Notes: generated by a model from the letters alone, not told the origin. A stretch of 32,000 nt of DNA from Pseudodesulfovibrio piezophilus C1TLV30 (GCF_000341895.1 NC_020409.1:810001-842000), one strand, 5' to 3'. Positions 1,062 to 20,163 are shown, counted from the first letter of the stretch. Program-made: numbers and translations.

Positions 1062-3284
1062 ATGACAATGATTCCATTTGATGCCACAAGTGTCACCGCC
1101 AAAGTCGGTGACATCGACATCACAATTGAAACGGGTAAATATGCCCGCCAAGCCAGTGGAGCTGTGACCATCACCTCTGGCAAAACCACTGTTCTGGTCA
1201 CTGCCGTGACCCAACCCCTGGCAATTGATCGCGGCTTTTTTCCGCTGACATGCAATTATCAGGAAATGGCTTATGCCGCTGGTCGCGTGCCGGGCAACTA
1301 CTTCCGCCGAGAAGGTCGCCCTTCTGAACATGAAACTTTAGTTTCCCGTCTCATAGATCGCCCCATTCGCCCTCTTTTCGCTGATGGCTTTGCCGATGAA
1401 GTTCAGATCATCGCCACTGTTCTGTCTGCTGATAAGAGCGTCAACCCCGACGTCCTGGCTTTGACCGGTGCTTCAGCCGCATGCCACATATCCAAAATGC
1501 CTTTCCTCGGCCCCATTGTCGGTGCTCGTGTGGGATACGTGAACAATGAGTTTGTTCTCTACCCCACTTACAAGGGGATTGAAGAAGAATCCACACTGAA
1601 CCTGGTCTTCGCCGCAACACGTGATGCCATGGTCATGGTTGAAGGTGGAGCCAAGTTCGTCAGTGAAGATATCATCGCTGATGCTTTGGCATGGGGCCAT
1701 GAGCAGGTCGCTCCTCTGTTCGATATTCAAGACGAACTGCGCGAGAAAGTTGGCGTTCCCAAAATCGAAGTTGAAACTCCTGCTCAGGATGCTGAACTCG
1801 TCGAATTTCTGGGAGACTTCATCACCGCTGATCTGGAGAAGGCTCTGACTACTCCGGAGAAGATGATCCGCTATGCAGCCAAGGATGCTGCAAAGCAAAA
1901 GGCCAAAGATGCCGTCGCAGATAAATTCCCCGAAGATGAAGCCAAGCTGAAAGCTGTGGGCGATGTCATCGGAAGCATGACCAAAAAAATCGTCCGCAAC
2001 CGCATCGTCAAAGAAGGGTTGCGTATTGACGGTCGTGACACGACCACAGTCCGCCCGCTGTCCATCCAGACCGGCGTCCTGAGTCAGACACACGGTTCCG
2101 TTCTGTTCCGCCGTGGTGAAACCAGCGCACTGGCTGTTGCCACCCTTGGTTCCACGCGCGACGAACAGCGTTATGACTCCCTGCTTGGAGATGCCACCAA
2201 GCGCTTCATGCTGCATTATAACTTCCCGCCATATTGTGTTGGTGAAGCTCGCATGCTTCGCGGCACCTCTCGTCGTGAAGTTGGTCACGGAGCCTTGGCT
2301 GAACGTGCCATCTCCCCAGTTCTGCCCAATGCCGAAGACTTCCCGTTCACCATTCGTGTCGTCTCCGAAATCATGGAATCAAACGGTTCCTCTTCCATGG
2401 CATCAGTATGCGGCGCAACCCTGTCCCTGATGGACGCAGGTGTGCCTATCTCCGAGCCGGTTGCAGGTATCGCCATGGGGCTGTGCAAAGAAGACGACCA
2501 GTACTTTGTCCTCACAGACATCCTCGGTGATGAAGACGCACTCGGCGATATGGACTTCAAAGTCGCAGGAACCCGGGATGGCATCACCGCTATCCAAATG
2601 GACATCAAGATCGCTGGTATCCCCTCAGAAGTCTTGAAAAAGGCACTGTACCAGGCAAAAGAAGCCCGGACACATATCCTGGATCATATGGGTGAAGAGC
2701 TTGCCACACCACGTAAAGAACTCTCTGAGTTGGCTCCGCAAATGGCCGTGGTTCACATTGATCCCGAGAAAATCCGCTCTGTCATCGGACCCGGTGGTAA
2801 AAATATCAAGGCAATCACAGCTGAGACTGAAGCCGATATCGATATCGAAGATTCCGGCAAGATTTCCATCTTTGCCCCGACTCTGGCTTCCATGGAAAAG
2901 GCCAAGGAAATGGTCCTCTACTATGACCAGAAACCAGAGCCTGGCAAGAACTACCTCGGTACTGTTCGAAAAGTTCTGGAAGTCGGAGCACTGGTCGAAA
3001 TTTTACCTGGTCAGGAAGGTATGCTGCATATCTCCCAGCTTGATTTCGAGCGGGTGGAAAGAGTTGAAGACGTTGTTCAACTTGGTCAGGAAGTATGGGT
3101 CAAGTGCATCGCCCTTGAGCCTGGCGGACGTATCCGTCTGTCCCGCAAGGCATGGTTGATGGAAGAAGCCGGACAGGAAGTCAACCTGGATGACTTCAAA
3201 CGTCCAGCTCCTCGTGGCGGAGATCGTAACGATCGTCGTGAGAATAATCGCGGACGCCGCGATAACAACCGCGGGCGCCGTTAA
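1062..3284 (+). CDS. pnp: Polyribonucleotide nucleotidyltransferase (PNPase)
   Basis: 740 aa with two RNase PH-like domains (FPLTCNYQEMAYAAGRVPG, GDEDALGDMDFKVAGT), a KH domain (IGPGGKNIKAI) and an S1 domain, plus an Arg-rich tail. Confidence 0.98.
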   Translation: MTMIPFDATSVTAKVGDIDITIETGKYARQASGAVTITSGKTTVLVTAVTQPLAIDRGFFPLTCNYQEMAYAAGRVPGNYFRREGRPSEHETLVSRLIDRPIRPLFADGFADEVQIIATVLSADKSVNPDVLALTGASAACHISKMPFLGPIVGARVGYVNNEFVLYPTYKGIEEESTLNLVFAATRDAMVMVEGGAKFVSEDIIADALAWGHEQVAPLFDIQDELREKVGVPKIEVETPAQDAELVEFLGDFITADLEKALTTPEKMIRYAAKDAAKQKAKDAVADKFPEDEAKLKAVGDVIGSMTKKIVRNRIVKEGLRIDGRDTTTVRPLSIQTGVLSQTHGSVLFRRGETSALAVATLGSTRDEQRYDSLLGDATKRFMLHYNFPPYCVGEARMLRGTSRREVGHGALAERAISPVLPNAEDFPFTIRVVSEIMESNGSSSMASVCGATLSLMDAGVPISEPVAGIAMGLCKEDDQYFVLTDILGDEDALGDMDFKVAGTRDGITAIQMDIKIAGIPSEVLKKALYQAKEARTHILDHMGEELATPRKELSELAPQMAVVHIDPEKIRSVIGPGGKNIKAITAETEADIDIEDSGKISIFAPTLASMEKAKEMVLYYDQKPEPGKNYLGTVRKVLEVGALVEILPGQEGMLHISQLDFERVERVEDVVQLGQEVWVKCIALEPGGRIRLSRKAWLMEEAGQEVNLDDFKRPAPRGGDRNDRRENNRGRRDNNRGRR

Positions 3285-3305
3285 CCCCAGCCCCTAAGAG
3301 ACCCA

Positions 3306-3345
3306 CGCCCCATTTCGACAAAGTTGAAATGGGGCGTTTCCTTTT
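3306..3345 (+). terminator. Rho-independent terminator of pnp
   Basis: 11-bp stem CGCCCCATTTC (3306-3316) / GAAATGGGGCG (3326-3336), followed by TTTCCTTTT. Confidence 0.8.
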
Positions 3346-3474
3346 CAGTCTCAAATTTAAAATCATTTTTTCAGCCCCCCTCTTGCACACCGCAATTAAA
3401 ACAAGCATTTCATAGCCCCTGCCAATAGACGAAAGCGTTCTCTCATGGTATTTTTCTGTGAAAGGAGGAGTCCT

Positions 3475-3687
3475 ATGGCGGAGGTAGTGATTTATGGTAA
3501 ACCAGCTTGTCCACATACCCAAAAAGCATTGAATGCCTACCCTGAAGCAGAATTCAGGGATGTTCTCGCCTCTTCCCAATTTTTGGAAGAATCATTGCAT
3601 TTTTCAGGTGGTCAGCGGCGAATCCCTGTTATCCTCAAGAACGGTGAACCTTCAATCGGTTTCAATGGCGGCTCATGACATATTTAA
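3475..3687 (+). CDS. Glutaredoxin-like small redox protein, probable selenoprotein of the Uxx-star type (TGA 3676-3678 read as Sec, true stop TAA 3685-3687)
   Basis: AGGAGG lies about 7 nt upstream of ATG 3475. The thioredoxin-fold pattern is VVIYGKPACPHT...RIPVI...GF. The ORF-track stop is a TGA followed by CAT ATT TAA. A SECIS-like hairpin sits downstream. The conventional call would be 3475..3678; the ORF-track start at 3445 has no SD. Confidence 0.6.
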
Positions 3688-3695
3688 AATATCTA

Positions 3696-3713
3696 ATTCG
3701 CTGGGTAGCGAAT
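3696..3713 (+). promoter_or_regulatory. Candidate bacterial SECIS stem-loop
   Basis: 7-bp stem ATTCGCT (3696-3702) / AGCGAAT (3707-3713) with a GGGU apical loop. The stem starts 17 nt after the UGA. It is distinct from the terminator that follows. Confidence 0.45.
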
Positions 3714-3718
3714 AAAAA

Positions 3719-3751
3719 GCGGTCTTTCCCATTCGGAAAGACCGCCTTTTT
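3719..3751. terminator. Bidirectional rho-independent terminator between the convergent glutaredoxin-like and Memo-like genes
   Basis: 11-bp stem GCGGTCTTTCC (3719-3729) / GGAAAGACCGC (3735-3745), flanked by AAAAA upstream and CTTTTT downstream. Confidence 0.8.
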
Positions 3752-3775
3752 AATCCTCAAAATACCGAAAAAGCG

Positions 3776-4582
3776 CTAACTGACGAGTATGCCGGCATAC
3801 CCTACGACTTGTGCCAAATCACCGGTAACATCACCCGATGTTGTATAGCCGACCAATTCTCCTGAGTGAGCTCCTAATACACGAGCCGCAACTAACCCAC
3901 ATGTCATAGGCAGAACACCGCACATGGAAATACGTTTTTCCCGCACTGTGGTAAAAAGGGCGAGCGGGTCTAACTCCACACACGCTTCCAAGGCCATGGA
4001 ATCCATTTCCTGGGCTTTTTCGTGTGAAATATAATGGCTCATATCTGAACTGACAATGATTGATACAGGGCGTTCAAATGCCTGAATGACGTCTCCAATG
4101 GTCCGACCAATCTCCTCCATTGCCTCAAATCGATTGGCGGAAAGAGCGATAGGAACGAACGTTGTATCAGGATTCATATGCTTGAGAAAAGGCAAAACGA
4201 CTTCCAACGAATGCTCTCCGATATGTGCTTCTGTATCCGCTGAAAGCATGGAATTACTTTCTAGCAAAACTGTTGCCAGACTTGTATCAATAGGAACATT
4301 TCCACCAGGAATAGCCCATTCGCCTTCAGGCCACAGGGAAAATTGTTTTCCTCGCCCCGTATGATTCGGGCCAAGAAGCAAGACAGTCGAGGCAAGAGAC
4401 GCAGTCCCTAATGTCTGCCCACAAAGAGCGCCTGAATAAACATATCCGGCGTGAGGTACCATTGCCAGGATTGTCGGTTCTGTTCGTCTGACAGCACCAG
4501 ACAAATAACCGTCCAATACCGTGTTCAATCTTGTTGGATCAGCTTCGTAAAAACGTCCAGCGACAACAGGCTCTCTGTGCAT
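3776..4582 (-). CDS. amrB: AmmeMemoRadiSam system protein B (MEMO1-family protein)
   Basis: 268 aa with VAGRFYEADP, PHAGYVYSG, GPNHTG, GEHSLEVVLPFL and SSDMSHY motifs typical of the Memo family. GGAGGG SD lies upstream. It starts 27 nt after the upstream gene. Confidence 0.88.
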   Translation of the reverse strand: MHREPVVAGRFYEADPTRLNTVLDGYLSGAVRRTEPTILAMVPHAGYVYSGALCGQTLGTASLASTVLLLGPNHTGRGKQFSLWPEGEWAIPGGNVPIDTSLATVLLESNSMLSADTEAHIGEHSLEVVLPFLKHMNPDTTFVPIALSANRFEAMEEIGRTIGDVIQAFERPVSIIVSSDMSHYISHEKAQEMDSMALEACVELDPLALFTTVREKRISMCGVLPMTCGLVAARVLGAHSGELVGYTTSGDVTGDLAQVVGYAGILVS

Positions 4583-4609: not shown

Positions 4610-7600
4610 TTATTGAGGGGCAGGTGCGTATTGCTGCACCTGTTGCTCAAGGGCATAAGAATCCAAAGCGGATTGAGCCAACTGCGCCTGAAGTGTCTCT
4701 GGTTTCTTTTCTATAATGTCTTCAAGCAACTGCTTCCATTCGTCAATAGCCCCGGCTTTACGATAAATTCTTGCCAGTTTAAAGCGAGTAGAAGCCCACT
4801 CCGGGTTATCCACATCGATATAATTATCATACTCTTTGGCCCATTTGAGAGCCTCGGAATACCGTCCAGAGCGCTCGGTAGCATAAATGGACATCAAAAC
4901 GGCATCCTTGATCTTCTCTGGATCGCCACTGGTTTGCAACAACAAAGAAAGCGCCTCCTGGGCATAGACAAACACCTTACGAAGGTCCTGACGATCCATT
5001 GCAGCCTTGGCCATGTAGTACATCGCATAGGCGCGGAAGGCAGGAGCCACCTTCATGTCCTTGGCAAGATCAGCCCACATGGCAAGAGCCTTATTCGCTT
5101 CACCAAGATTCTGAAGCGACATGGCGCGGGCATAGTCTAGCTGTCTGAGCTGCGCAGGCTTGAGTTTCCAATTTTTCTTTGCCATGGCGACCAAATCCGC
5201 AATCTCTGACCATGCAAGTTGATCGAGATAGATATTGACAGCAAGTCCCAGAGCTTCTTCTGACAATTCAAGGCGCTGCTTTTGAGTCAAAAACGGCTTG
5301 ATAAGTTCAAGGGCTTTTTCCGGCTGACCGACTTTCCAATAACTTGTTGCAACATTCAACCGTGTTGAGTCATCAACCTTGGTATCTTTCTTTCCGATGA
5401 AGTCATACGTTTCCCAATACCTGACAACCCGACCGTAACGCCCTTCCTCCACCATCCCCGGAACGGCCAAGGCAAAAACTGAATCTCCCAATTTTCTGGC
5501 ACGATCAATCAAAGGACTCGCAGGATATTTATCAATAAAATCCTGCGCCGCAGCCAGTGCTTCTGGATATTTCTTATTAAAGGCATACCACATGGCAAGT
5601 TTCAACTGCGCTATGGGAGCCAGAGGACTCTGAGGATGTTCTTCAACAATCTCTTTGTATATATTCTCCGGCCGCTTATTGTAGGGTCTATCAAAGACCG
5701 TCGCCATTTCAGACATAGCCGGTTCATCATAAATGCCCTCTTCCGCCAAACGCATTTTTGAGACCAACCCACCATCTTTATCCGGGAAATCCTTCACTGC
5801 CTTTTGATAAATCTGCTTGGCGGCGTCCTGCTCCTTCTCCCGAATGTAGATATCACCGATCTGCGCAAGGACAATATCTGCGCCTTCAGCTTCGGGATTC
5901 AGGTTGTAATATGTAAAATAATGATTTTTGGCTTGTTCCCACTTTTTGAGCTTCATTTCGACGCCACCAGCCAAACGCAGGAATTGGGCATTTTCCATGT
6001 AATAATCCGGCCACCGTTTATCGATGTAATCAACAATCTGAAAAGCCTGATCAGTAAAGCCTGTGCGATTAAGTGAGTCTGCCAGATAATAGGCTGCGGG
6101 CTTAACCAATTCGTGTTCAGGATATGTCTGGATTAAATATTGGAACTGATCGGCTGCTTTTTTATAATCACCTTTTTTATAGTAGTATTCACCCCAATAG
6201 TAGCTGATAGATGGAATATTATCATCATCCGGGAATTTATCCTGTAAAATCTTAAAATATGCCTTGGCTTCCGGGAAATTGCCCACCTGCAAATTAAGCA
6301 AGCCGAGATTAAGCAGAGCACGGGGTAATCGAGTTGAACGCAAATTGGAGTTCATTGCTTCAATAAAAGACTGAGAAAGCTCATCATAATGAGCTTCTAC
6401 ATCATCACTGTGGACCTGTTTTTTGATGTCAGCTATGGCATAGAGAGTCTCTTCACGAACATCGTCAGGAACTCCAGGCTGCTTGAGAATATCTTCGAAC
6501 ATGGTCAACGCATTTTCCAATGCACCATTAAACATCATGGATTGAGCTTCGTACAATTTGTCCCTGATGGCCTGCAGACGAGCCTCTTCAGCCAAAGTTG
6601 CGTTGCTCGCCTCCACTCCATCCCGCCCTTGGATATCTTGACCAGAAAGACCTTGGTCTGTTCCATTTTCAACCTTAGCTTGAGGATCAATGGCCTCGAC
6701 AGATTGGTTCTCTGCCGAAGGTAAGGGTCTTCCTTCTTGAAGTGCCATCTGCTGTTGAATTGTCAGATTTTCAGCAGAAGGAGCGACACTTTTACTGGCC
6801 TCAGCAATCTCCTCTTGCGTGGGTTGTGGTGGAGGAGCGCCCTCAACCACTGTCGGGGGCGGAGATACTCGAACACTTTGCCCACCTGAAGGAGGTGCAA
6901 TGGTAACAACCACTCCACCTTCTGGAGATATCTCGGCCCCTTCTATCGGTTGAGCACCCTCATTGACAGCTCGTTTCTGCTGTATATTCCCCGAATTTTC
7001 CACAGGTGGAGCAATGGAAATCCCAACTCGCCCATCCTGATTCGGGGAATCGGGCGGAGGTCCAATATTCATGCTGACCTGCCCATCTCCATCAGTTGCA
7101 ACACGGGGTTGTGCCGGAGGACCCTCTATAACCGCCCTTTCAGAAACATCCGCAGGAGGTGTCACTTCTGGCTCAGGCGAAGCTTCTTGAGACTGAGGTA
7201 AGCGAATCTTAACTTGTACAGGGCCCCCTTCCGGCCTTGCCTGGCTTTGCGATTGTGTTGGATTTGCCGTTGGCAAAGGAATACGCGTCTCGGACGAATC
7301 CACAACAACATCTGGACTGACTCTGTTAACAGCCTGCGAACCGGAGTCTCCTGACTGAGAAGCATTGTTCGGCTGACTTGCTTCAGGCTGGGAAGTTCCA
7401 GGCGGGGACACCTTGGTTCGTACCGAGTAAGGGACCGAAAAAAAAGGCTGGCGTTCCTCTGATTCTGGCGGCAAATCAACTTCGCCCTGAGGCTGAGTAG
7501 GACGAGACTGTGCTGCTTGTTCTCCAGCCCCTGCAACAGGCTGGCTTGAAGGAGAATTCGATGCTAAACTTGATTGTTCCACCTGAATTTCCGGCTGAGA

Positions 7601-8092
7601 TGATGACCTTTGGGGAGACGATTGAGCAGCAATCGAGTCTGAAGACTTGGTCGCTGTATCCGTTCCCTGTTGTGAGGTAGGAGCCTTCCATCGTGCCCCA
7701 TAAGCATCACGATAAACTTGTACAACAAATTCGGATTTTCCTGGAGATGGCACCTTGATAAAACCGAAAGCATTGGTGGATGTCACCAATTCGACGCCAT
7801 TTTGTGTTGCGCGCATGGATTTCACAACCATTCCAGGGAAATCTTTGCTCGATGGCTTGGATTCGGCTTGCCACACTTCTTGTGGTATATTTACCGAGAT
7901 GGCCTCAGGACCGGAACGGCGTACCGAAATATTCGATAAACTATCTGAATCAAAAGAAAAAATAAATTTTTCTACATTTGCAGAGGAAGTAGAATTGACA
8001 CGTAAAGCAGATGCAGGGGATGCATGGAACACCCCGATCAGAAAGGCCAGCAGTATGGGCCAGAGTGGATTATTGGCACTTTTCACAGTCAC
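4610..8092 (-). CDS. Large secreted or periplasmic tetratricopeptide-repeat protein
   Basis: 1160 aa, GTG start with no obvious SD. It has an N-terminal signal-peptide-like segment (LWPILLAFLIGVFHASPASA). A roughly 110-aa beta-rich domain follows, then about 330 aa of Pro/Ser/Gln-rich low complexity. The C-terminal ~650 aa contain many TPR-like helical repeats (e.g. AKAYFKILQDKFPDD, AADQFQYLIQTYPEH). Confidence 0.85.
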   Translation of the reverse strand: MTVKSANNPLWPILLAFLIGVFHASPASALRVNSTSSANVEKFIFSFDSDSLSNISVRRSGPEAISVNIPQEVWQAESKPSSKDFPGMVVKSMRATQNGVELVTSTNAFGFIKVPSPGKSEFVVQVYRDAYGARWKAPTSQQGTDTATKSSDSIAAQSSPQRSSSQPEIQVEQSSLASNSPSSQPVAGAGEQAAQSRPTQPQGEVDLPPESEERQPFFSVPYSVRTKVSPPGTSQPEASQPNNASQSGDSGSQAVNRVSPDVVVDSSETRIPLPTANPTQSQSQARPEGGPVQVKIRLPQSQEASPEPEVTPPADVSERAVIEGPPAQPRVATDGDGQVSMNIGPPPDSPNQDGRVGISIAPPVENSGNIQQKRAVNEGAQPIEGAEISPEGGVVVTIAPPSGGQSVRVSPPPTVVEGAPPPQPTQEEIAEASKSVAPSAENLTIQQQMALQEGRPLPSAENQSVEAIDPQAKVENGTDQGLSGQDIQGRDGVEASNATLAEEARLQAIRDKLYEAQSMMFNGALENALTMFEDILKQPGVPDDVREETLYAIADIKKQVHSDDVEAHYDELSQSFIEAMNSNLRSTRLPRALLNLGLLNLQVGNFPEAKAYFKILQDKFPDDDNIPSISYYWGEYYYKKGDYKKAADQFQYLIQTYPEHELVKPAAYYLADSLNRTGFTDQAFQIVDYIDKRWPDYYMENAQFLRLAGGVEMKLKKWEQAKNHYFTYYNLNPEAEGADIVLAQIGDIYIREKEQDAAKQIYQKAVKDFPDKDGGLVSKMRLAEEGIYDEPAMSEMATVFDRPYNKRPENIYKEIVEEHPQSPLAPIAQLKLAMWYAFNKKYPEALAAAQDFIDKYPASPLIDRARKLGDSVFALAVPGMVEEGRYGRVVRYWETYDFIGKKDTKVDDSTRLNVATSYWKVGQPEKALELIKPFLTQKQRLELSEEALGLAVNIYLDQLAWSEIADLVAMAKKNWKLKPAQLRQLDYARAMSLQNLGEANKALAMWADLAKDMKVAPAFRAYAMYYMAKAAMDRQDLRKVFVYAQEALSLLLQTSGDPEKIKDAVLMSIYATERSGRYSEALKWAKEYDNYIDVDNPEWASTRFKLARIYRKAGAIDEWKQLLEDIIEKKPETLQAQLAQSALDSYALEQQVQQYAPAPQ
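6820..7230 (-). repeat. Degenerate in-frame repeats inside the TPR-protein linker (G-x-V-x-[IV]-x-[IV]-[AG]-P-P units)
   Basis: Translation shows GPVQVKIRLPQ, RAVIEGPPAQP, GQVSMNIGPPP, GRVGISIAPPV, GGVVVTIAPPS and SVRVSPPPT at roughly 20-30-aa intervals. Coordinates are approximate. Confidence 0.4.
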
Positions 8093-13596: not shown

Positions 13597-14016
13597 TTAA
13601 ATCAGGTCCTTTCCGGTGGTCGTCAAGGCAAGATTGCCGTGCTTGACACCTTTGGTGGAAATCAATTTCTGCCCAAGTGTCTTGATGGTATCGGCTTCGC
13701 CCTTGAGAATAATGACTTCCAGACAATTATAGTGATCGAGATGAACATGCAACGAGGACTGGATGACATTGTGATGCTCGTGCTGAATCTCAGTCAATCG
13801 TTGAGACAGGCCGGATTTATGGTGGTCATAAACAAGAGTCAATGTCCCTGCAAGGTCTCCTTCAGCCTCTTCCCATTCCCGCTGAACAAGAGTCTTTCTG
13901 ATGAGATCGCGAATAGCCTCTGAGCGGGTCTGGTAGCTTCGCTCATCGCAGTGTTCATCGAATTTCTGCAATAGGTCCGAATCCAGCGAAACTCCAAATC
14001 GTATTGTCTTTCCCAT
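13597..14016 (-). CDS. nikR: Nickel-responsive transcriptional regulator NikR
   Basis: It has a ribbon-helix-helix N-terminus ([13 protein letters not shown]...RSEAIRDLI). The C-terminal nickel site is [12 protein letters not shown] (H-x-H-x5-C) plus HEHH. GGAGGG SD lies 5-6 nt before ATG 14016. Confidence 0.9.
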
Positions 14017-14029
14017 ACATCCCTCCACA

Positions 14030-14725
14030 TTAAGGAATTGTTATTTCCCAGAGATTGACCGTGGCATTCTGCCCACACAAAGCAACCTTTTCCACAGTCA
14101 ACTTTTTCGGCAAAAAACCTTCTGCATCCAGAGCATCCCATACAGGACGAGAGACCGTGCGGACAGGCTCTCCAATCCAGATTTTCCCCCCCGGAGCAAG
14201 GGCATGACGGAAGAGGCGGATCAACGGCTGAAAAAACCGTTTTTCATACAAGATGTCACCACCCCAAATAAAATCAAAAGCTCCTTCCGCTATTGCAGGC
14301 GCACGCCAGTCCATAAGCAGCCAAAGAGGTTGTGGCACGGCATTCAAAGCGGCATTATGCCGGGCGAAAAGGACAGCTGGCCATTCATAATCAAAGGCCA
14401 CGACAGAAGCTCCCACCGAACTTGCTATCATTCCGGTCAGACCAAGCCCGCACCCCATATCGAGACATGCTTTTCCGGCAAGCCTCTGCTTGTTTCTAAA
14501 AATATGACGTCCAAGGAGGACGCTTGCAGGCCATACTTCCGCCCAGTAGGGGAGACGCTCATCATCGCCAAGATCAGCTTCCTCCATGCATTCCCAGAGC
14601 GCTTCCATGTCCGCTGCCCGATCAAGAAGCCAGACACGCCCTTCAACCTCGACTTCCACGCGGGAACCCGGGTCAGGAACACTGAACCTATGAAAGGCTT
14701 CTGAATCACCTTGTTTTTTACACAT
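14030..14725 (-). CDS. Class I SAM-dependent methyltransferase (Methyltransf_16 / lysine-methyltransferase-like)
   Basis: SAM motif I is [11 protein letters not shown] and an acidic post-I is VVAFDYE. Its stop TAA (14030-14032) lies 13 nt before the nikR ATG. The start is uncertain (ATG 14725 or TTG 14737). Confidence 0.8.
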
Positions 14726-14752
14726 AACGTTGAGCAAAGCTACTCTCGCCCA

Positions 14753-14780
14753 GTGCTACAGTCAACCTGATTCGTAGTAC
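14753..14780. promoter_or_regulatory. NikR-box-like inverted repeat upstream of the methyltransferase-nikR operon
   Basis: GTGCTAC (14753-14759) - N14 - GTAGTAC (14774-14780) forms 7-bp arms with one mismatch. It resembles the GTGTTAC-N13/14-GTAACAC NikR signal that I recall being reported for delta-proteobacteria. Confidence 0.4.
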
Positions 14781-15039
14781 TCCCGATATCTCAATGAACG
14801 ATAGCGTATAACTGAAGCAATTCTCAAAAAAATTTATTCATCTTTATTTATAGTGAGTTGTATTCAAACCAAGCAAAATCGCCATTTTATTGACGCTTTG
14901 CCTTGCCTTTTTTGTTTCAAGATTCAAGAAGGAGGAAAGCGTCATTTTTTTTACTATTTCCAACATTCTTTGTGCATGTTAATGAGTTTTGATTAATCAT
15001 GTTTTACAGCCATTTCTTTTGCCAACAAGGAGCACCGAT

Positions 15040-15417
15040 ATGATTCCCGATGATCTCAAGTACACAAAATCTCATGAATGGGTTATGGTAGAAGGCGATA
15101 TTGCAACGGTCGGCATTACTCACTTTGCTCAGGAACAATTGGGTGATCTGACTTTTGTGGAACTGCCCGAAGTGGGAGATACCTTCGAAGCCGGCACGGA
15201 GATGGGGTCCGTGGAATCTGTCAAAGCAGCCAGCGAAATTTACGCTCCCGTTACCGGCGAAGTTGTCGAAGTCAACGAGGAACTCGAAGACGCTCCGGAG
15301 AATGTGAATGAAGAACCATACGGAGACGGCTGGCTCCTGAAATTCAAGATCAAAGGAGAGCCTGATAATCTCCTTGATGCCGAGGCATATACCTCCCTAG
15401 TTGAGTCCGAACACTAG
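15040..15417 (+). CDS. gcvH: Glycine cleavage system protein H
   Basis: YTKSHEWV, lipoyl-lysine motif VESVKAAS and GDGWL are present. AAGGAG SD precedes ATG 15040. The ORF-track TTG at 14989 has no SD. Confidence 0.95.
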
Positions 15418-15427
15418 AACGCTTTTT

Positions 15428-15457
15428 AGGCCGGGACATCAGTTTCGGCCTTTTTTT
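15428..15457 (+). terminator. Terminator/attenuator-like hairpin between gcvH and gcvPA
   Basis: Stem AGGCCG (15428-15433) / CGGCCT (15446-15451), followed by a T7 run. Confidence 0.5.
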
Positions 15458-15589
15458 CTCACAGACAAGCTAGGCTGCCACTGGCCGATGACTGTCGGAA
15501 GAACCATACAAGGTTCCAGCGTCACTCCGACGCAAAGGGAAGCATTCCTTTTTCCGCCATAGGCACATGGAAGCCGTAAGGAAAACAAT

Positions 15590-16924
15590 ATGCCATACGT
15601 TCCCCATACCGAGGACGAAGTACGGCAGATGCTAGCAACTATTGGCGTGGATTCCGTGGAAGATCTCTTTGCCGAGATCACCGAGGACATGCGCCCGAAA
15701 AGCTATGATCTGCCCGCCGGTTTAAGTGAAATGGAAGTATTGAGTAAGCTGGAGTCCATGGCTGCAAAGAATGCCACGGATCGGGTAAGCTTTCTGGGGG
15801 CAGGTTTCTACGACCATTACATTCCCGCAGCAGTGGATGCGCTGACCATGCGTGGCGAATTCTACACCGCCTATACTCCCTATCAACCCGAAGCATCCCA
15901 AGGGACACTTCAAGCCATTTTCGAATACCAGACAGCAGTAACCCGTTTATTGGGGATGGATTGTGCCAATGCCTCGGTCTACGATGGCGGGACCGCTCTG
16001 TACGAAGCGCTGATGATGGCCGTACGTAAAACAAAACGGCGCAAGATTATCGTTTCAGAAGCCCTGAACCCAATCTATCGGGTCATGCTTGGTTCCTATA
16101 CATCCAATCTGGATATGGAATTCGTAACCGTCCCGCACAAGGATGGCATGACCGACATAGAGGGACTCAAAACCGCCATTGACGGCGAGACAGCTGCCCT
16201 CCTCGTGCAAAATCCGAACTTTTTCGGTTCCATCAATGACTTTACCGACCTGTTCACTGTATGCCGGGAGAACAAGGCCGTATCCATCATTTCATCATAC
16301 CCGGTCCTGCAAACCCTGCTCAAGACCCCGGGAGACATGGGAGCCGACATAGCGGTAGCAGAGGGACAATCCCTGGGTCTACCGCTCTCATTCGGAGGCC
16401 CATATCTTGGCATCATGACCTGTACCAAGAAAATGGTTCGCCAGATGCCGGGACGTATTGTTGGCCGTACAGAGGACTCCCAGGGCCGTACCGGGTACGT
16501 GCTGACCCTTCAAGCGCGAGAGCAACACATCCGCCGCCAGAAGGCGACCTCAAATATCTGCTCCAACCAGTCCCTGTGCGCCTTACGTGCTCTTGTACAC
16601 ATGTGTGCCTTGGGCGAACTCGGCATGAAACGGGCTGCCCGACTGTCCATTGAACGAGCACATATATGCGCCGAACGCCTCACCGCAATCGATGGCGTGG
16701 AAATGCTGACCAAAGGACCATTCGGCAATGAATTTGCCCTCAGCCTCCCGGTCAACGCCTTTGATGTCATAGCCAAGCTCACCGCTCGTGGTTTCGTCCC
16801 CGGCTTCCCTCTCGGCAAATACTATGCGTCCCTCGAAAACGGATTGCTCGTGGCCTGTACGGAAAAGACCAATGAAGAACAAATCGGCATCTTCGCCGAG
16901 ATGCTCAAAGGAGCACTCATATGA
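15590..16924 (+). CDS. gcvPA: Glycine dehydrogenase (aminomethyl-transferring) subunit 1
   Basis: 444 aa beginning MPYVPHTEDEVRQML, with TAYTPYQPEASQG and ICSNQSL, typical of GcvPA. Confidence 0.97.
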   Translation: MPYVPHTEDEVRQMLATIGVDSVEDLFAEITEDMRPKSYDLPAGLSEMEVLSKLESMAAKNATDRVSFLGAGFYDHYIPAAVDALTMRGEFYTAYTPYQPEASQGTLQAIFEYQTAVTRLLGMDCANASVYDGGTALYEALMMAVRKTKRRKIIVSEALNPIYRVMLGSYTSNLDMEFVTVPHKDGMTDIEGLKTAIDGETAALLVQNPNFFGSINDFTDLFTVCRENKAVSIISSYPVLQTLLKTPGDMGADIAVAEGQSLGLPLSFGGPYLGIMTCTKKMVRQMPGRIVGRTEDSQGRTGYVLTLQAREQHIRRQKATSNICSNQSLCALRALVHMCALGELGMKRAARLSIERAHICAERLTAIDGVEMLTKGPFGNEFALSLPVNAFDVIAKLTARGFVPGFPLGKYYASLENGLLVACTEKTNEEQIGIFAEMLKGALI

Positions 16925-18363
16925 AGACCATATTCGATAAATCAGTTGCCGGGCGCGAAGGCTGCTGGCCTTGCGAAGGAATGGCGGAAGAGGCCTATAT
17001 TCCCTCGGAACTGCTGCGAAGCGGCGAAATAGGTCTCCCTTCAGCATCCGAATTGGACGTAGTGCGACATTTCACTAAACTTTCCCAGCGTAATTTCGGT
17101 GTGGATGGGAATTTCTACCCTTTAGGGTCCTGTACCATGAAGTATAACCCTAAATTTACCGAAAATGCCGCTGCCCTTCCCGGTTTTACCCGGTTACATC
17201 CTGTTTTGCCCCAACTCCAGGGAGCTGGTGGATTGTGCCAGGGCGCACTTGAAGTCATGTACGAGACAGAATCCCTGCTATCCGAATTGACAGGGATGTC
17301 CGCATACACCCTGCACCCCATGGCCGGAGCCCACGGCGAGCTGACCGGAGTCATGCTCATGGCTGCCTACCACAAGGACAAAGGGAACAAAAAAACCAAA
17401 ATCATTGTCCCCGACTCGGCGCATGGAACCAACCCCGCGTCAGCTGCCATCGCAGGATATGAAGTCATCAGTATCGAGTCACGCGATGGCATCGTGGACC
17501 CAAAGGCCTTGGCCGAAGTGCTTGATGACCAGGTGGCGGGAATGATGATGACATGCCCCAATACATTGGGTCTGTTTGAAAAACATCTTCCCGAGATTGT
17601 CAGGATGCTCCGGGAAGTTGATGCTTTGCTGTACTATGACGGCGCAAATCTGAATGCCATCATGGGCAAGATGCGCGTTGGTGATGTCGGTTTCGATATT
17701 GTCCACTTGAATTTGCACAAAACCTTTGCCACCCCTCACGGCGGAGGTGGTCCGGGTTCTGGTCCGGTTGGCGTCAGCGAGAAGCTGGTCCCCTACCTTC
17801 CCATTTCTCGCGTTGCGAAACAGGAGGACGGACAGTTCTTTCTTGATTACAATTATCCAAAATCCATCGGCTACATTTCGCCATTTTACGGAAACTTTGG
17901 TGTTGTGCTGAGAGCCTACGCCTACATCCTGCGCCTCGGTGGTCCGGGGTTGGCTCGCGCCACGGAAAATGCGGTTCTGGCCGCCAACTACATGCGAAAA
18001 CGACTGGCCGATCATTTTGAGGTGCCATACAACCGCATCTGCATGCATGAATTTGTCGCCAGCGCATCGGCCCAAGCCGAAAAAGGCATCCGGGCGCTTG
18101 ATATAGCCAAGGCTCTTCTGGATAAAGGACATCATGCGCCGACGGTATACTTCCCGCTCATTGTTCCCGAATCAATTATGATCGAACCCACGGAAACCGA
18201 AAACAAGGAAACCTTGGACGCATTCATTGATGATCTCATTGATATTGTCACAATGGTGGATACAAACCCGGATGCCATCCATGCCGCTCCTGTCACGCTT
18301 CCCGTAACAAGATTGGATGAAACCAAAGCCGCCCGCTCCATGGAGCTGACCGATGACTTATGA
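16921..18363 (+). CDS. gcvPB: Glycine dehydrogenase (aminomethyl-transferring) subunit 2
   Basis: 480 aa with the PLP-lysine motif HLNLHKTFATPHGGGGPG. It overlaps gcvPA by ATGA. Confidence 0.97.
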   Translation: MKTIFDKSVAGREGCWPCEGMAEEAYIPSELLRSGEIGLPSASELDVVRHFTKLSQRNFGVDGNFYPLGSCTMKYNPKFTENAAALPGFTRLHPVLPQLQGAGGLCQGALEVMYETESLLSELTGMSAYTLHPMAGAHGELTGVMLMAAYHKDKGNKKTKIIVPDSAHGTNPASAAIAGYEVISIESRDGIVDPKALAEVLDDQVAGMMMTCPNTLGLFEKHLPEIVRMLREVDALLYYDGANLNAIMGKMRVGDVGFDIVHLNLHKTFATPHGGGGPGSGPVGVSEKLVPYLPISRVAKQEDGQFFLDYNYPKSIGYISPFYGNFGVVLRAYAYILRLGGPGLARATENAVLAANYMRKRLADHFEVPYNRICMHEFVASASAQAEKGIRALDIAKALLDKGHHAPTVYFPLIVPESIMIEPTETENKETLDAFIDDLIDIVTMVDTNPDAIHAAPVTLPVTRLDETKAARSMELTDDL

Positions 18364-19717
18364 TCTGATTGTCATAGGCGCTGGTCCCGGAGGATTTGAT
18401 GCAGCTGTGGCTGGTGCCGAAAAAGGCTTGAAGGTTGCACTGGTCGAAAAAAAGCTTCTTGGCGGTACCTGCCTCAACTGGGGATGCATCCCGACCAAAC
18501 TTTGGCTGGGGGCGACGACGGCCATTGACGAATTGCATAACCAGGCGAAAATGAAAGTCGCATCTGGAGAAGTAAGCATTGCCTTTCCAGCACTCCAGGC
18601 ACGGGTGCAGAAACACCTGGCCGGAACGCGCAAGGCCATGGGGGCACAGCTCAAGAAACTCGGCATCGACCTGCTCGAAGGGATCGGAACCCTGAAAGGC
18701 ACAGGAGAAATCTCAGTGGCAACCAAGGATGGGAAAATCACTGCCACGTACAAAGACCTGATCATTGCCACAGGGTCACAACCACTTTTCTTCCCTGGCC
18801 TCGAGCCGGATGGAGAGTGCATTCTTGATTCAAACATGTTCCTTGGTGTGGAAGAGATGCCCTCTTCACTCATTGTTGTCGGGGCAGGTTTCATAGGGAT
18901 AGAAATGGCACAGGTTGCACACCGCATGGGTGCCAAAGTAACACTTATTGATGCCATGGATCGAGTTGCTCCATTGGAAGACCCTGAAGTTTCCAAGGCG
19001 CTTCAATCCACATTCAAACGCTGGAAATGGGACGTTCTCCTTGAAAAACGCGTGGCCGGAGTCCAAACTATTGATGGCAAGGGCGTTCTAACGCTCGATA
19101 ACCGCGACAAGATCGAAGCGGACCTGATCCTTGTGGCAGTGGGCCGTGGCCCTGTTACTGGCGGCATGGCATTGGCGGAAGCTGGAGTTGAACGACAATT
19201 CAACAAGATCGAGGTTGACGAAAACCTTCAGGCAGCCCCCAATATCTATGCTATCGGTGACGTAAACGGCATCATTCAGTTGGCCCATGCAGCTTCTCAT
19301 CAGGCACATTATGTTGTCTCTCGCATTACAGGCAAAACCGATCTGCCATATGAATCAGGACCGGTCCCCAGCGTGCTCTATGGCGCGCCGGAAGTCATGC
19401 GCGTAGGGTTGACAGAGAATGAAGCATTCCTTTCCGATTATGAAACGACGGAAACCTCAAAAGCTCAACTGGCAGCCAATCCCATGGCTCAGGCACACGC
19501 GGCCACACAGGGATTTGTCAAGGTTGTCTGGTCCAATGGTACAGTTGTCGGCATTACGGCGGTGGGACATGATGTATCACGACTCTGTGTGGCTGCCACC
19601 ATGATCGTCCAACAAGCCTGGACCGCAAAAGATATCCACAAGACCATTTTCCCGCACCCGTCCCTGGACGAGTCGCTGCTGATGGCACTCAAAGCTGAAA
19701 GGAAGAAAACAGCATGA
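18353..19717 (+). CDS. lpdA: Dihydrolipoyl dehydrogenase (L protein)
   Basis: FAD fold DLIVIGAGPGG, redox disulfide GGTCLNWGCIPTK and C-terminal HPHPSLDES. It overlaps the gcvPB end by 11 nt. Confidence 0.93.
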   Translation: MTYDLIVIGAGPGGFDAAVAGAEKGLKVALVEKKLLGGTCLNWGCIPTKLWLGATTAIDELHNQAKMKVASGEVSIAFPALQARVQKHLAGTRKAMGAQLKKLGIDLLEGIGTLKGTGEISVATKDGKITATYKDLIIATGSQPLFFPGLEPDGECILDSNMFLGVEEMPSSLIVVGAGFIGIEMAQVAHRMGAKVTLIDAMDRVAPLEDPEVSKALQSTFKRWKWDVLLEKRVAGVQTIDGKGVLTLDNRDKIEADLILVAVGRGPVTGGMALAEAGVERQFNKIEVDENLQAAPNIYAIGDVNGIIQLAHAASHQAHYVVSRITGKTDLPYESGPVPSVLYGAPEVMRVGLTENEAFLSDYETTETSKAQLAANPMAQAHAATQGFVKVVWSNGTVVGITAVGHDVSRLCVAATMIVQQAWTAKDIHKTIFPHPSLDESLLMALKAERKKTA

Positions 19718-20163
19718 TCATCGATATCTTGAAGAACGCATCTGACTATGTCGCCCTCAATCCCCACTTTGCCAAAGCATTCGCCTTCCTCAACCGGGAA
19801 GACCTTGCCGATCTCGAAGTCGGCAGACATGACGTAGACGGTCAGAATGTCTACGCTGTCGTTGCCAAAGGACACGGTCGTAAAGCCGAGGAAGCGCTCA
19901 TCGAGACTCATGATCACTATATTGATATTCAATTTGTACTGCGGGGAACGGACTCCATCGGATGGAAAGCGCGACACGACCTGGGACCAACAATCCAGGC
20001 TTCAGACCCACGCAGCGATGTGGACTTCTATGAAGATCCACCCACACATTGGACAGACATTACGCCGGGTATGCTTGGCATATACTTCCCGGAAGACGGT
20101 CATATGCCGATGATCTCGGAAGGAGAACTTCACAAGGTTATCGTGAAGGTGGCCATGAAGTAA
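19714..20163 (+). CDS. YhcH/YjgK/YiaL family (DUF386, cupin-like) protein
   Basis: 149 aa with GRHDVDGQNVYAVV...ETHDHYIDIQFVLRG...FYEDP...YFPEDGHMP, typical of this family. It overlaps lpd by ATGA. Confidence 0.85.
   Translation: MIIDILKNASDYVALNPHFAKAFAFLNREDLADLEVGRHDVDGQNVYAVVAKGHGRKAEEALIETHDHYIDIQFVLRGTDSIGWKARHDLGPTIQASDPRSDVDFYEDPPTHWTDITPGMLGIYFPEDGHMPMISEGELHKVIVKVAMK

What the first reader, a model, noticed from the sequence alone, without database searches (positions are those of the whole stretch)
3475..3751. Glutaredoxin-like ORF whose TGA 'stop' is followed by exactly two codons and TAA: probable Uxx-star selenoprotein with a 3'-UTR SECIS
Seen in sequence: the ORF ends ...GFNGGS-TGA(3676-3678)-CAT-ATT-TAA(3685-3687), which reads ...GGS-U-H-I-stop if the TGA is decoded as Sec. 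The N-terminal thioredoxin-fold active site reads C-P-H-T, so the second Cys of the usual CxxC is missing. A C-terminal Sec would be the natural redox partner. A 7-bp hairpin (3696-3702 / 3707-3713) with a GGGU apical loop starts 17 nt after the UGA. It is separate from the real terminator at 3719-3751. Bacterial SECIS elements are hairpins with G/U in the apical loop a few tens of nt downstream of the UGA. From memory, NCBI/TIGRFAM curation names a 'Uxx-star' glutaredoxin-like (seleno)protein family with Sec third from the C-terminus. Gene callers truncate such genes and lose the catalytic residue.
Basis: partly seen in the sequence, partly recalled or inferred. Interest (0 to 1): 0.7.

Follow-up and report, generated by a model that had tools for sequence, protein, structure and literature searches.

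The report
Known UXX-star selenoprotein gene, database-truncated
This small glutaredoxin-like gene of Pseudodesulfovibrio piezophilus almost certainly reads its TGA as selenocysteine, three residues before the true end, guided by a hairpin just past the stop codon; it belongs to a selenoprotein family that NCBI already curates and names, so it is correct but not new.

Summary
The ORF starts at ATG 3475 and ends GGS-TGA(3676-78)-CAT-ATT-TAA(3685-87). A 7-bp hairpin with a GGGU loop lies at 3696-3713, and a separate terminator at 3719-3751.

With U written as C, the 70-aa product matches NCBIfam NF041114 "UXX-star selenoprotein family 1" end to end (86.5 bits, cutoff 72). The 67-aa truncated product is identical to P. 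piezophilus WP_015414063.1, which NCBI already names that way.

In 85 of 85 homologous loci the first stop is TGA, followed by exactly two codons and a stop. Those two codons vary synonymously, so they are translated. In 64 of 77 distinct sequences a G[G/U]-loop hairpin lies 16-24 nt after the UGA. Shuffles and other TGA sites give about 4%. There are 44 different stem arms, and 5 of 6 consensus pairs show compensatory changes.

Some homologues also carry TGA at the N-terminal Cys position (UPYT). Published tables list this strain as selenocysteine-utilizing.

This is an already known family. The function is uncharacterized; a Cys12-Sec68 selenylsulfide couple is the best inference. The public protein record lacks the U-H-I tail.

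The parts
3305..3346 (+). Terminator of the upstream pnp gene (polynucleotide phosphorylase, 1062-3284). It marks the small gene as a separate transcription unit.
   Evidence: 15-bp stem followed by TTCCTTTTCA; the pnp ORF is listed.
3463..3469 (+). Ribosome-binding site AGGAGGA, 5 nt before the ATG.
   Evidence: Read. The database protein of 67 aa starts at this ATG. The in-frame ATG at 3445 has no such site.
3475..3687 (+). Complete coding sequence of the 70-residue UXX-star family 1 selenoprotein: MAEVV...GFNGGS-U-H-I, stop TAA.
   Evidence: NF041114 86.5 bits (cutoff 72), profile positions 1-70 of 70. Pfam Glutaredoxin 24.4 bits (cutoff 22.9). PDB glutaredoxin 3ic4, E = 0.0012.
3508..3519 (+). 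N-terminal active-site motif C-P-H-T. Cys12 is the only cysteine in the protein. Thr replaces the second Cys of CxxC.
   Evidence: Aligns with CPHC of 3ic4. C12, P13 and T15 are invariant or nearly so in the family. The Cys position is a TGA in some homologues.
3676..3678 (+). UGA codon read as selenocysteine (Sec68), third residue from the C-terminus.
   Evidence: TGA at this position in 85 of 85 loci, always followed by two sense codons and a stop. Synonymous variation in those two codons.
3679..3687 (+). Codons His69 (CAT), Ile70 (ATT) and the true stop TAA.
   Evidence: Fits the family-1 tail pattern U-[H/N]-[V/L/I]-stop. Including the tail adds 7 bits to the HMM score.
3696..3713 (+). Probable bacterial SECIS element lying wholly in the 3' untranslated region: 7-bp stem, apical loop GGGU, loop 24 nt after the UGA.
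   Evidence: Meets all published bSECIS constraints quoted, with MFE -7.5 exactly at the limit. Equivalent hairpins in 64 of 77 relatives against about 4% in controls. 5 of 6 consensus pairs show compensatory changes. No T-run follows on the + strand.
3719..3751 (.). Intrinsic terminator. It probably acts in both directions, for this gene and for the convergent AmmeMemoRadiSam system protein B gene (3776-4582, minus strand).
   Evidence: 11-bp stem with 7 GC pairs, followed by CTTTTT on the + strand. AAAAA precedes it at 3714-3718, which gives a T-run on the minus strand. The neighbour is identified.

Best explanation
Window 3475-3687 encodes a 70-residue glutaredoxin-fold selenoprotein of the curated family 'UXX-star selenoprotein family 1' (NCBIfam NF041114) from Pseudodesulfovibrio piezophilus.

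Decoding. The UGA at 3676-3678 is decoded as selenocysteine. When the ribosome reaches it, the hairpin at 3696-3713 recruits SelB-GTP-Sec-tRNA(Sec). This hairpin sits entirely after the real stop codon. Sec, His and Ile are added, and translation ends at TAA 3685-3687. The separate hairpin at 3719-3751 terminates transcription.

How the protein works (inferred, not shown). Cys12 of the C-P-H-T motif lies at the N-terminus of helix 1. Sec68 follows the conserved G-G turn after the last strand, a turn that borders the active site in glutaredoxins. The two residues would form a reversible selenylsulfide, which replaces the CxxC disulfide of ordinary glutaredoxins.

What is shown: family membership, the conserved UGA-xx-stop layout, translation of the tail, a conserved hairpin of SECIS type, and a Sec-using host according to the literature.

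What is inferred: actual Sec insertion in this organism, the Cys12-Sec68 couple, and the physiological substrate.
For: Family: NF041114 at 86.5 bits against a cutoff of 72, covering profile positions 1-70 of 70. The truncated form scores 79.3.

Identity: the 67-aa product equals CCH48009.1 / WP_015414063.1, which NCBI names 'UXX-star selenoprotein family 1 [Pseudodesulfovibrio piezophilus]'.

Layout: TGA + 2 codons + stop in 85 of 85 loci.

The tail is translated: Gly at +1 uses GGG 23, GGC 16, GGA 5 and GGT 1. Val at +2 uses GTC 37, GTT 10, GTG 10 and GTA 6.

SECIS: 64 of 77 distinct sequences have a hairpin with loop N0-1-G-[G/U] at 16-24 nt, against 3.2 of 77 in shuffles and 3.9% at other TGA sites. 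All 64 loops fit the motif, there are 44 distinct stem arms, and only 3 of 64 are followed by a T-rich tail. RNAalifold finds compensatory changes in 5 of 6 pairs. The window hairpin meets the bSECIS constraints quoted.

[quoted passage not shown] The trait is defined there by SelD/SelA/SelB.

Redox pair: Cys12 is the only Cys in the protein. Homologues L114 and L115 carry TGA at both positions (S-U-P-Y-T ... G-G-T-U-G-V-stop), and the first TGA has its own in-ORF hairpin with the loop 18 nt after the UGA. A review lists the family as 'UxxT, 2 Sec'.

Orthology: the pnp - gene - Memo-like arrangement is conserved in Pseudodesulfovibrio.
Against: There are no experimental data for this or any family member, so Sec insertion is inferred.

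The window's hairpin is the weakest and most distant of the family. It has an AU-rich stem and an MFE of -7.5, exactly at the published limit. There are 17 nt from the UGA to the stem, against a family mode of 11, and 24 nt to the loop, against a mode of 18.

No Rfam family matches. No sel gene or tRNA-Sec lies in the 32-kb window, so the host's machinery rests on the literature.

The review suggests metal binding as an alternative role for the Sec.

Nitrospina relatives with the same CPHT motif have no C-terminal Sec or Cys. The N-terminal Cys can therefore presumably work without such a partner.
Confidence: 0.9

Rival explanations
1. In P. piezophilus the TGA is a plain stop. The protein is a 67-residue monothiol glutaredoxin-like protein ending in GGS, and the H-I-TAA tail and hairpin are relics of a selenoprotein ancestor.
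For: The hairpin is the family outlier in spacing and stability. The 67-aa form still passes the family cutoff at 79.3 bits. CPHT relatives in Nitrospina work without a C-terminal Sec or Cys. All public records give 67 aa.
Against: The tail CAT ATT TAA still fits the family pattern U-[H/N]-[V/L/I]-stop exactly. The hairpin still meets every bSECIS constraint. The strain is listed as Sec-utilizing. No locus among the 85 has replaced the TGA with TAA or TAG, which a mere stop would be free to do.
Confidence: 0.07
2. The hairpin at 3696-3713 is a transcription-termination or RNA-stability element and not a SECIS. It could, for example, be a second terminator for the convergent minus-strand gene. 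Any read-through of the UGA would then not depend on it.
For: The consensus scan flags it as terminator-like on the minus strand, with the tail TAGATATTTT. It lies in a convergent intergenic region next to a strong terminator.
Against: On the + strand it is followed by AAAAAG, not by T's. In the family only 3 of 64 equivalent hairpins have a T-rich tail. All 64 loops fit the G-[G/U] motif. The spacing to the UGA is tightly fixed at 16-21 nt in 63 of 64. Separate terminators follow in the window and in L001. The minus-strand gene already has the 3745-3719 hairpin with a T-run.
Confidence: 0.05
3. Sec is inserted, but Sec68 acts as a ligand for a metal or metalloid, or as a carrier of a persulfide or selenide species. 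In this reading it is not the resolving partner of Cys12 in a thiol-selenol redox cycle.
For: [quoted passage not shown] The conserved His at +1 (U-H-x) in family 1 could join Cys and Sec in coordination.
Against: The gene neighbours are housekeeping genes (pnp, Memo-like, a TPR protein) and show no metal-resistance context. The fold and the CPxT motif are those of thiol-disulfide oxidoreductases. Sec replaces Cys12 in some members, as is typical for redox sites.
Confidence: 0.3

Closest known systems
NCBIfam NF041114 'UXX-star selenoprotein family 1', listed in a 2026 review as 'Distant Grx-like protein 1'
   Same: It is a member. The full-length HMM match is above the curated cutoff. It shares the CPxT N-terminal motif, the G-[S/A]-U-[H/N]-[V/L/I]-stop tail and a hairpin just after the stop. 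NCBI already gives this exact protein that name.
   Different: The review records the family as UxxT with 2 Sec. This member has Cys at the N-terminal position, so it has one Sec. Its SECIS spacer is 6 nt longer than the family mode. The deposited sequence stops at residue 67.
Sister models NF041212 (Uxx-star family glutaredoxin-like (seleno)protein), NF041211 (family 2), NF047338 (family 3) and NF045501 (HUGP/GUXX-star fusion)
   Same: Same small glutaredoxin-like fold with Sec third from the end. All are weakly hit: 52.1, 36.2, 25.8 and 26.3 bits. The CPYT...GG[T/S]-U-G-V-stop group found in metagenomes has the same gene layout and hairpin.
   Different: All four scores are below their cutoffs of 66, 100, 97 and 325. 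The tail of this protein is U-H-I, not U-G-V.
Escherichia coli fdhF-type bacterial SECIS, and the bSECIS consensus model of Zhang and Gladyshev
   Same: A stem-loop with G-[G/U] at the start of a small apical loop, placed 16-37 nt after the UGA and read by SelB (model quoted). The family's modal spacing of 11 nt from UGA to stem equals, from my own recollection, the spacing reported as optimal for the minimal fdhF element.
   Different: Here the element lies wholly in the 3' UTR, because only two codons follow the UGA. Bacterial SECIS elements are typically inside the coding region. There is no sequence similarity and no Rfam match.
Classical dithiol glutaredoxins (CPYC; PDB 3ic4 with CPHC, 2khp, 2klx)
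   Same: Pfam Glutaredoxin domain above threshold. The order of active-site Cys, cis-Pro (R-I-P-V) and G-G turn is the same.
   Different: The second Cys of CxxC is Thr. The C-terminal helix is absent, since the protein ends 5 residues after the G-G turn. The putative resolving residue is a C-terminal Sec.
Mammalian thioredoxin reductase C-terminal -Gly-Cys-Sec-Gly-stop (analogy from established knowledge, not tested here)
   Same: Sec lies within three residues of the C-terminus on a flexible tail. It forms a selenylsulfide with a Cys, and the SECIS is in the 3' UTR.
   Different: It is a eukaryotic enzyme with an unrelated fold. The partner Cys is adjacent rather than 56 residues away. It uses a eukaryotic SECIS and SBP2 machinery.

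Membership tests
NCBIfam NF041114 UXX-star selenoprotein family 1 | HMM score at or above the curated cutoff over the full model | tested here: met
   86.5 bits against a cutoff of 72, protein residues 4-70 on profile positions 1-70 of 70 with U written as C. The truncated form scores 79.3 bits.
NCBIfam NF041114 UXX-star selenoprotein family 1 | In-frame TGA (Sec) third from the C-terminus: U-x-x-stop | tested here: met
   TGA 3676-78, CAT, ATT, TAA 3685-87. The same layout occurs in 85 of 85 related loci.
NCBIfam NF041114 UXX-star selenoprotein family 1 | Glutaredoxin-like fold with an N-terminal C/U-P-x-T motif | tested here: met
   Pfam PF00462 at 24.4 bits (cutoff 22.9). CPHT aligns with CPHC of PDB 3ic4. 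C12, P13 and T15 are conserved. U replaces C in L114 and L115.
NCBIfam NF041114 UXX-star selenoprotein family 1 | The residues after the UGA are translated (protein-level constraint on the tail) | tested here: met
   Synonymous codon variation at +1 (Gly uses 4 codons, His 2) and at +2 (Val uses 4 codons), with a conserved amino-acid pattern.
NCBIfam NF041114 UXX-star selenoprotein family 1 | Selenocysteine is actually incorporated | not testable with these tools
   This needs 75Se labelling or mass spectrometry. No experimental report for the family turned up in the one paper found by the literature search for 'UXX-star'.
Bacterial SECIS (consensus model quoted in PMC13188914) | Apical loop of 3-9 nt and upper stem of 4-16 bp | tested here: met
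   Loop GGGU is 4 nt and the stem is 7 bp.
Bacterial SECIS (consensus model quoted in PMC13188914) | G in the first two loop positions, usually followed by G or U | tested here: met
   The loop starts with GG. All 64 family hairpins fit N0-1-G-[G/U].
Bacterial SECIS (consensus model quoted in PMC13188914) | 16-37 nt between the UGA and the apical loop | tested here: met
   24 nt in the window. The family range is 16-24 with a mode of 18.
Bacterial SECIS (consensus model quoted in PMC13188914) | Minimum free energy of -7.5 kcal/mol or lower | tested here: met
   -7.5 kcal/mol, exactly at the limit. Only borderline on its own: 6 of 200 shuffles fold as well.
Bacterial SECIS (consensus model quoted in PMC13188914) | Structure conserved among orthologues through compensatory changes | tested here: met
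   5 of 6 consensus pairs show double changes. There are 44 distinct stem arms among 64 hairpins. Hairpin frequency is 83% against about 4% in controls.
Bacterial SECIS (consensus model quoted in PMC13188914) | Binds SelB and is needed for UGA read-through | not testable with these tools
   This needs a reporter or binding assay.
Sec-decoding host (selA, selB, selC, selD present) | The genome encodes the Sec machinery | tested here: inconclusive
   Nothing in the window: no tRNA and no sel gene among the ORFs scanned. The rest of the genome could not be fetched. Literature: D. piezophilus C1TLV30 is listed among Sec-utilizing organisms (SelD/SelA/SelB criterion) with 7 known selenoproteins.
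Classical dithiol glutaredoxin | C-x-x-C active site | tested here: not met
   The motif is C-P-H-T, and Cys12 is the only Cys in the protein.
Rfam SECIS or any other Rfam family | Covariance-model match at the gathering score | tested here: not met
   No match at gathering in the window. Only chance-level hits (E of 0.07 or more, none a SECIS family) in 3600-3800.

The most novel reading that the evidence does not exclude
The most novel reading not excluded is this. Cys12 and the C-terminal Sec68 form a selenylsulfide across the glutaredoxin active site, or a diselenide in the double-Sec homologues. That would make these 70-residue proteins the smallest known class of thiol-selenol oxidoreductase, with a 'C/U-P-x-T ... 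U-x-x-stop' split active site in place of CxxC. In this reading the fixed 3'-UTR position of the SECIS also lets the ribosome tell the Sec-UGA from a second UGA only 6 nt later, which serves as the real stop in 43 of 79 members. In P. piezophilus the 6-nt longer spacer would show that this measuring is more tolerant than the family norm suggests. None of this would change the classification, because the family is already curated. It would only supply its missing biochemistry.
Probability: 0.45. Interest if true: 0.4.

Novelty: already known. Interest (0 to 1): 0.15.

Why it matters
For genome annotation, the public records of this protein (CCH48009.1, WP_015414063.1, UniRef100_M1WP37) are 67 residues long and lack the U-H-I tail, so they lack the presumed catalytic residue. 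Gene callers either truncate family members at the TGA or, in some metagenomes, print the TGA as W. For biology, the family is widespread in sulfate reducers and in soil and sediment metagenomes, yet it has never been characterized. It is a clean natural example of a bacterial SECIS that works from the 3' UTR, and of two UGA codons 6 nt apart with different meanings. As a discovery it adds nothing new, because the family, its name and its Sec position are already curated.

Tried and rejected
- Rfam at gathering threshold on the whole window and at E up to 10 on 3600-3800 gave no SECIS or other credible family. The top hits are CRISPR-repeat, miRNA and sRNA models at chance level.
- ARAGORN on the window found no tRNA, so no tRNA-Sec.
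- A scan of the window for other ORFs interrupted by a single TGA found no convincing second selenoprotein gene.
- NCBIfam annotation of ten neighbouring ORFs found no sel genes.
- The search for homologous proteins returned only the protein itself. It served to identify the source, not to collect relatives.
The Cys12-Sec68 distance therefore could not be modelled. The truncated form was not worth predicting, because it lacks the residue of interest and no coordinates are returned.
- An exact look-up of the U-containing sequence was rejected as not a protein sequence. I cannot say whether a corrected 70-aa record exists.
- Haft and Tolstoy 2025 (PMC12013261), cited by the review for UXX-star family 2 and the HUGP/GUXX-star fusion, is not held in the library.
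- The review attributes 'Distant Grx-like protein 1' to Zhang and Gladyshev 2008. That wording is not in that paper's main text.
- The top hit of the representative search, P0002 (2027 aa, 10 stretches), is a repetitive lectin-like protein. I judge it a false positive inflated by its repeats.
- The Nitrospina loci L005-L024 share CPHT but have no UXX-stop tail. They were not counted as family members.

Full report
**1. Observation**

- A strong ribosome-binding site, AGGAGGA (3463-3469), precedes ATG 3475.
- The ORF reads MAEVVIYGKPACPHT...GFNGGS and meets TGA at 3676-3678.
- CAT ATT follow, and then TAA at 3685-3687.
- Seventeen bases after the TGA comes a perfect 7-bp inverted repeat, ATTCGCT/AGCGAAT (3696-3702 / 3707-3713), around the loop GGGT.
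- A separate, much stronger hairpin (3719-3745, 11 bp) with a T-run is the terminator.
- An upstream terminator after pnp (3305-3346) shows that the small gene stands alone.

Taken alone the 7-bp hairpin is unremarkable. Its MFE is -7.5 kcal/mol, z is -2.4, and 6 of 200 shuffles fold as well.

**2. Identity**

With U written as C, the 70-residue product matches NCBIfam NF041114, 'UXX-star selenoprotein family 1'. The score is 86.5 bits against a curated cutoff of 72, and the match covers the whole 70-position profile. The three tail residues add 7 bits over the truncated form.

The sister models NF041212, NF041211, NF047338 and NF045501 are hit below their cutoffs. Pfam Glutaredoxin is just above threshold. 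The closest solved structure is the glutaredoxin 3ic4, whose CPHC aligns with CPHT here.

The 67-residue truncated product is identical to CCH48009.1 / WP_015414063.1 / UniRef100_M1WP37 of Pseudodesulfovibrio (formerly Desulfovibrio) piezophilus C1TLV30. NCBI already names it 'UXX-star selenoprotein family 1'. The window therefore comes from that organism. Two JGI assemblies carry the identical gene, hairpin and terminator.

**3. Comparative test of the UGA**

A scan of one genome per species found four close relatives in Pseudodesulfovibrio and Humidesulfovibrio (54-60% identity). A metagenome scan with a family alignment gave 80 more loci.

In all 85 loci the first in-frame stop is TGA, and it is followed by exactly two sense codons and a stop. 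Two tail types appear:
- G-[S/A]-U-[H/N]-[V/L/I] with CPHT. The window belongs to this type.
- G-G-[T/S]-U-[G/S]-V with CPYT.

The two codons after the TGA show synonymous variation. Gly uses GGG 23, GGC 16, GGA 5 and GGT 1. Val uses GTC 37, GTT 10, GTG 10 and GTA 6. This is the signature of translated sequence.

Rare homologues carry Cys near the Sec position, for example P0054 ...GRYCAV.

**4. Comparative test of the hairpin**

I applied the published bacterial SECIS constraints: loop 3-9 nt, stem 4-16 bp, G in the first two loop positions, 16-37 nt from the UGA, and MFE of -7.5 or lower (quoted).

| Set tested | Hairpin at 16-24 nt from the UGA |
|---|---|
| Distinct family sequences | 64 of 77 |
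| Shuffles of the same sequences | 3.2 of 77 on average |
| 840 other TGA sites in the same loci | 3.9% |

They were made with the energy limit relaxed to -6.5 kcal/mol, because the script's simple-stem energy for the window hairpin is -6.5. At the published limit of -7.5, 59 of 77 still pass.

All 64 loops fit N0-1-G-[G/U]. The stems use 44 different arms. Only 3 of 64 are followed by a T-rich tail, so these are not terminators. RNAalifold on 26 family-1 sequences recovers the hairpin with compensatory changes in 5 of 6 pairs.

The window's element passes every constraint but is the family outlier. It has 17 nt from the UGA to the stem (mode 11), 24 nt to the loop (mode 18), and the weakest stem. 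Rfam has no model that matches.

**5. Host machinery**

The window holds no tRNA and no sel gene, and I could not fetch the rest of the genome. Peng et al. [quoted passage not shown] The trait is defined there by SelD, SelA and SelB. This rests on the literature, not on my own test.

**6. How it most likely works**

Decoding. SelB carrying Sec-tRNA(Sec) binds the apical loop of the 3'-UTR hairpin while the ribosome holds the UGA in the A site. Sec, His and Ile are added and translation stops at TAA.

In 43 of 79 family members the true stop is itself TGA, only 6 nt after the Sec codon. The fixed distance to the hairpin therefore has to decide which UGA is recoded. This is my inference.

Protein chemistry. 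Cys12 is the only cysteine, and it sits where the nucleophilic Cys of glutaredoxins sits. Thr replaces the resolving Cys. Sec68 follows the conserved G-G turn, which in glutaredoxins borders the active site (established knowledge of the fold). In homologues L114 and L115 both positions are TGA (S-U-P-Y-T ... G-G-T-U-G-V-stop), and each has its own hairpin with the loop about 18 nt after the UGA.

The best-supported mechanism is a Cys12-Sec68 selenylsulfide redox couple. This is inferred. The review's alternative, that the Sec binds a metal or another substrate, is not excluded.

The gene context gives no functional clue: pnp upstream, and a convergent AmmeMemoRadiSam-B gene and a TPR protein downstream. 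The pnp - gene - Memo-like - TPR arrangement is conserved in L001, and pnp lies upstream in L001-L003.

**7. Verdict**

The thing is a regular member of an already curated and named selenoprotein family, and this very protein already carries that name in RefSeq. Three things remain open: experimental proof of Sec insertion, the biochemical role, and the truncated public sequence. Novelty: already known. Interest: low.

Noticed in passing
Family loci L001-L113 (e.g. L001:3202-3213): In 43 of 79 distinct family members the real stop codon is itself TGA, only 6 nt after the Sec-encoding TGA. Two identical codons two positions apart are read differently, presumably because of their distance to the hairpin.
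   Followed up: partly
window 3679-3713: The window's putative SECIS has a spacer 6 nt longer (17 nt from UGA to stem, against a family mode of 11) and an AU-rich, weaker stem than any relative. Its closest relatives keep the 10-12 nt spacing. The cause and the effect on efficiency are unknown.
   Followed up: partly
L114:237-458 and L115:178-399: Homologues with two TGA codons, at the N-terminal active site (S-U-P-Y-T) and third from the end (G-G-T-U-G-V-stop). The stored protein predictions print both as W, and several other representatives (P0016, P0026, P0027, P0031) run on past the stop as read-through artefacts.
   Followed up: yes
L005-L024 (Nitrospina/Nitrospinota genomes): A related group of small CPHT glutaredoxin-like proteins ends ...EIGYTGD/E-stop. 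It has ordinary stops of all three kinds and no Sec or Cys tail. It looks like a Sec-less sister group with a single Cys.
   Followed up: no
window 3475-3678 versus public records: CCH48009.1, WP_015414063.1 and UniRef100_M1WP37 are all 67 aa, truncated at the Sec codon, although NCBI's name for the protein says selenoprotein.
   Followed up: partly
window 3714-3751, both strands: The 11-bp hairpin is flanked by AAAAA on the left and CTTTTT on the right. It can therefore serve as a bidirectional terminator for the convergent genes at 3475-3687 (+) and 3776-4582 (-).
   Followed up: no
window 4610-8092 (-): A 1160-aa protein with TPR repeats in its C-terminal half and a long Pro/Ser/Gln-rich low-complexity N-terminal half after a signal-like start. 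Its C-terminal half is 79% identical (residues 513-1159) in L001, P. karagichevae.
   Followed up: no
window 13597-20163: NikR (13597-14028, -) was identified by NCBIfam. GcvH (14989-15417, +) was also identified there. It is followed by three large same-strand ORFs at 15590-19717, whose size and N-terminal sequences look like GcvPA, GcvPB and a dihydrolipoyl dehydrogenase-like flavoprotein; these were not scanned. A YhcH/YjgK/YiaL family gene (19714-20163) follows. This is ordinary housekeeping content with no selenium-related genes.
   Followed up: partly
P0002 and P0014 (representative search): Giant repetitive proteins (2027 and 3290 aa) top or enter the hit list through 10-11 weak repeated matches. 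P0002 is a tandem lectin-like repeat protein and is unrelated. Repeats can inflate phmmer whole-sequence scores for a short query.
   Followed up: yes
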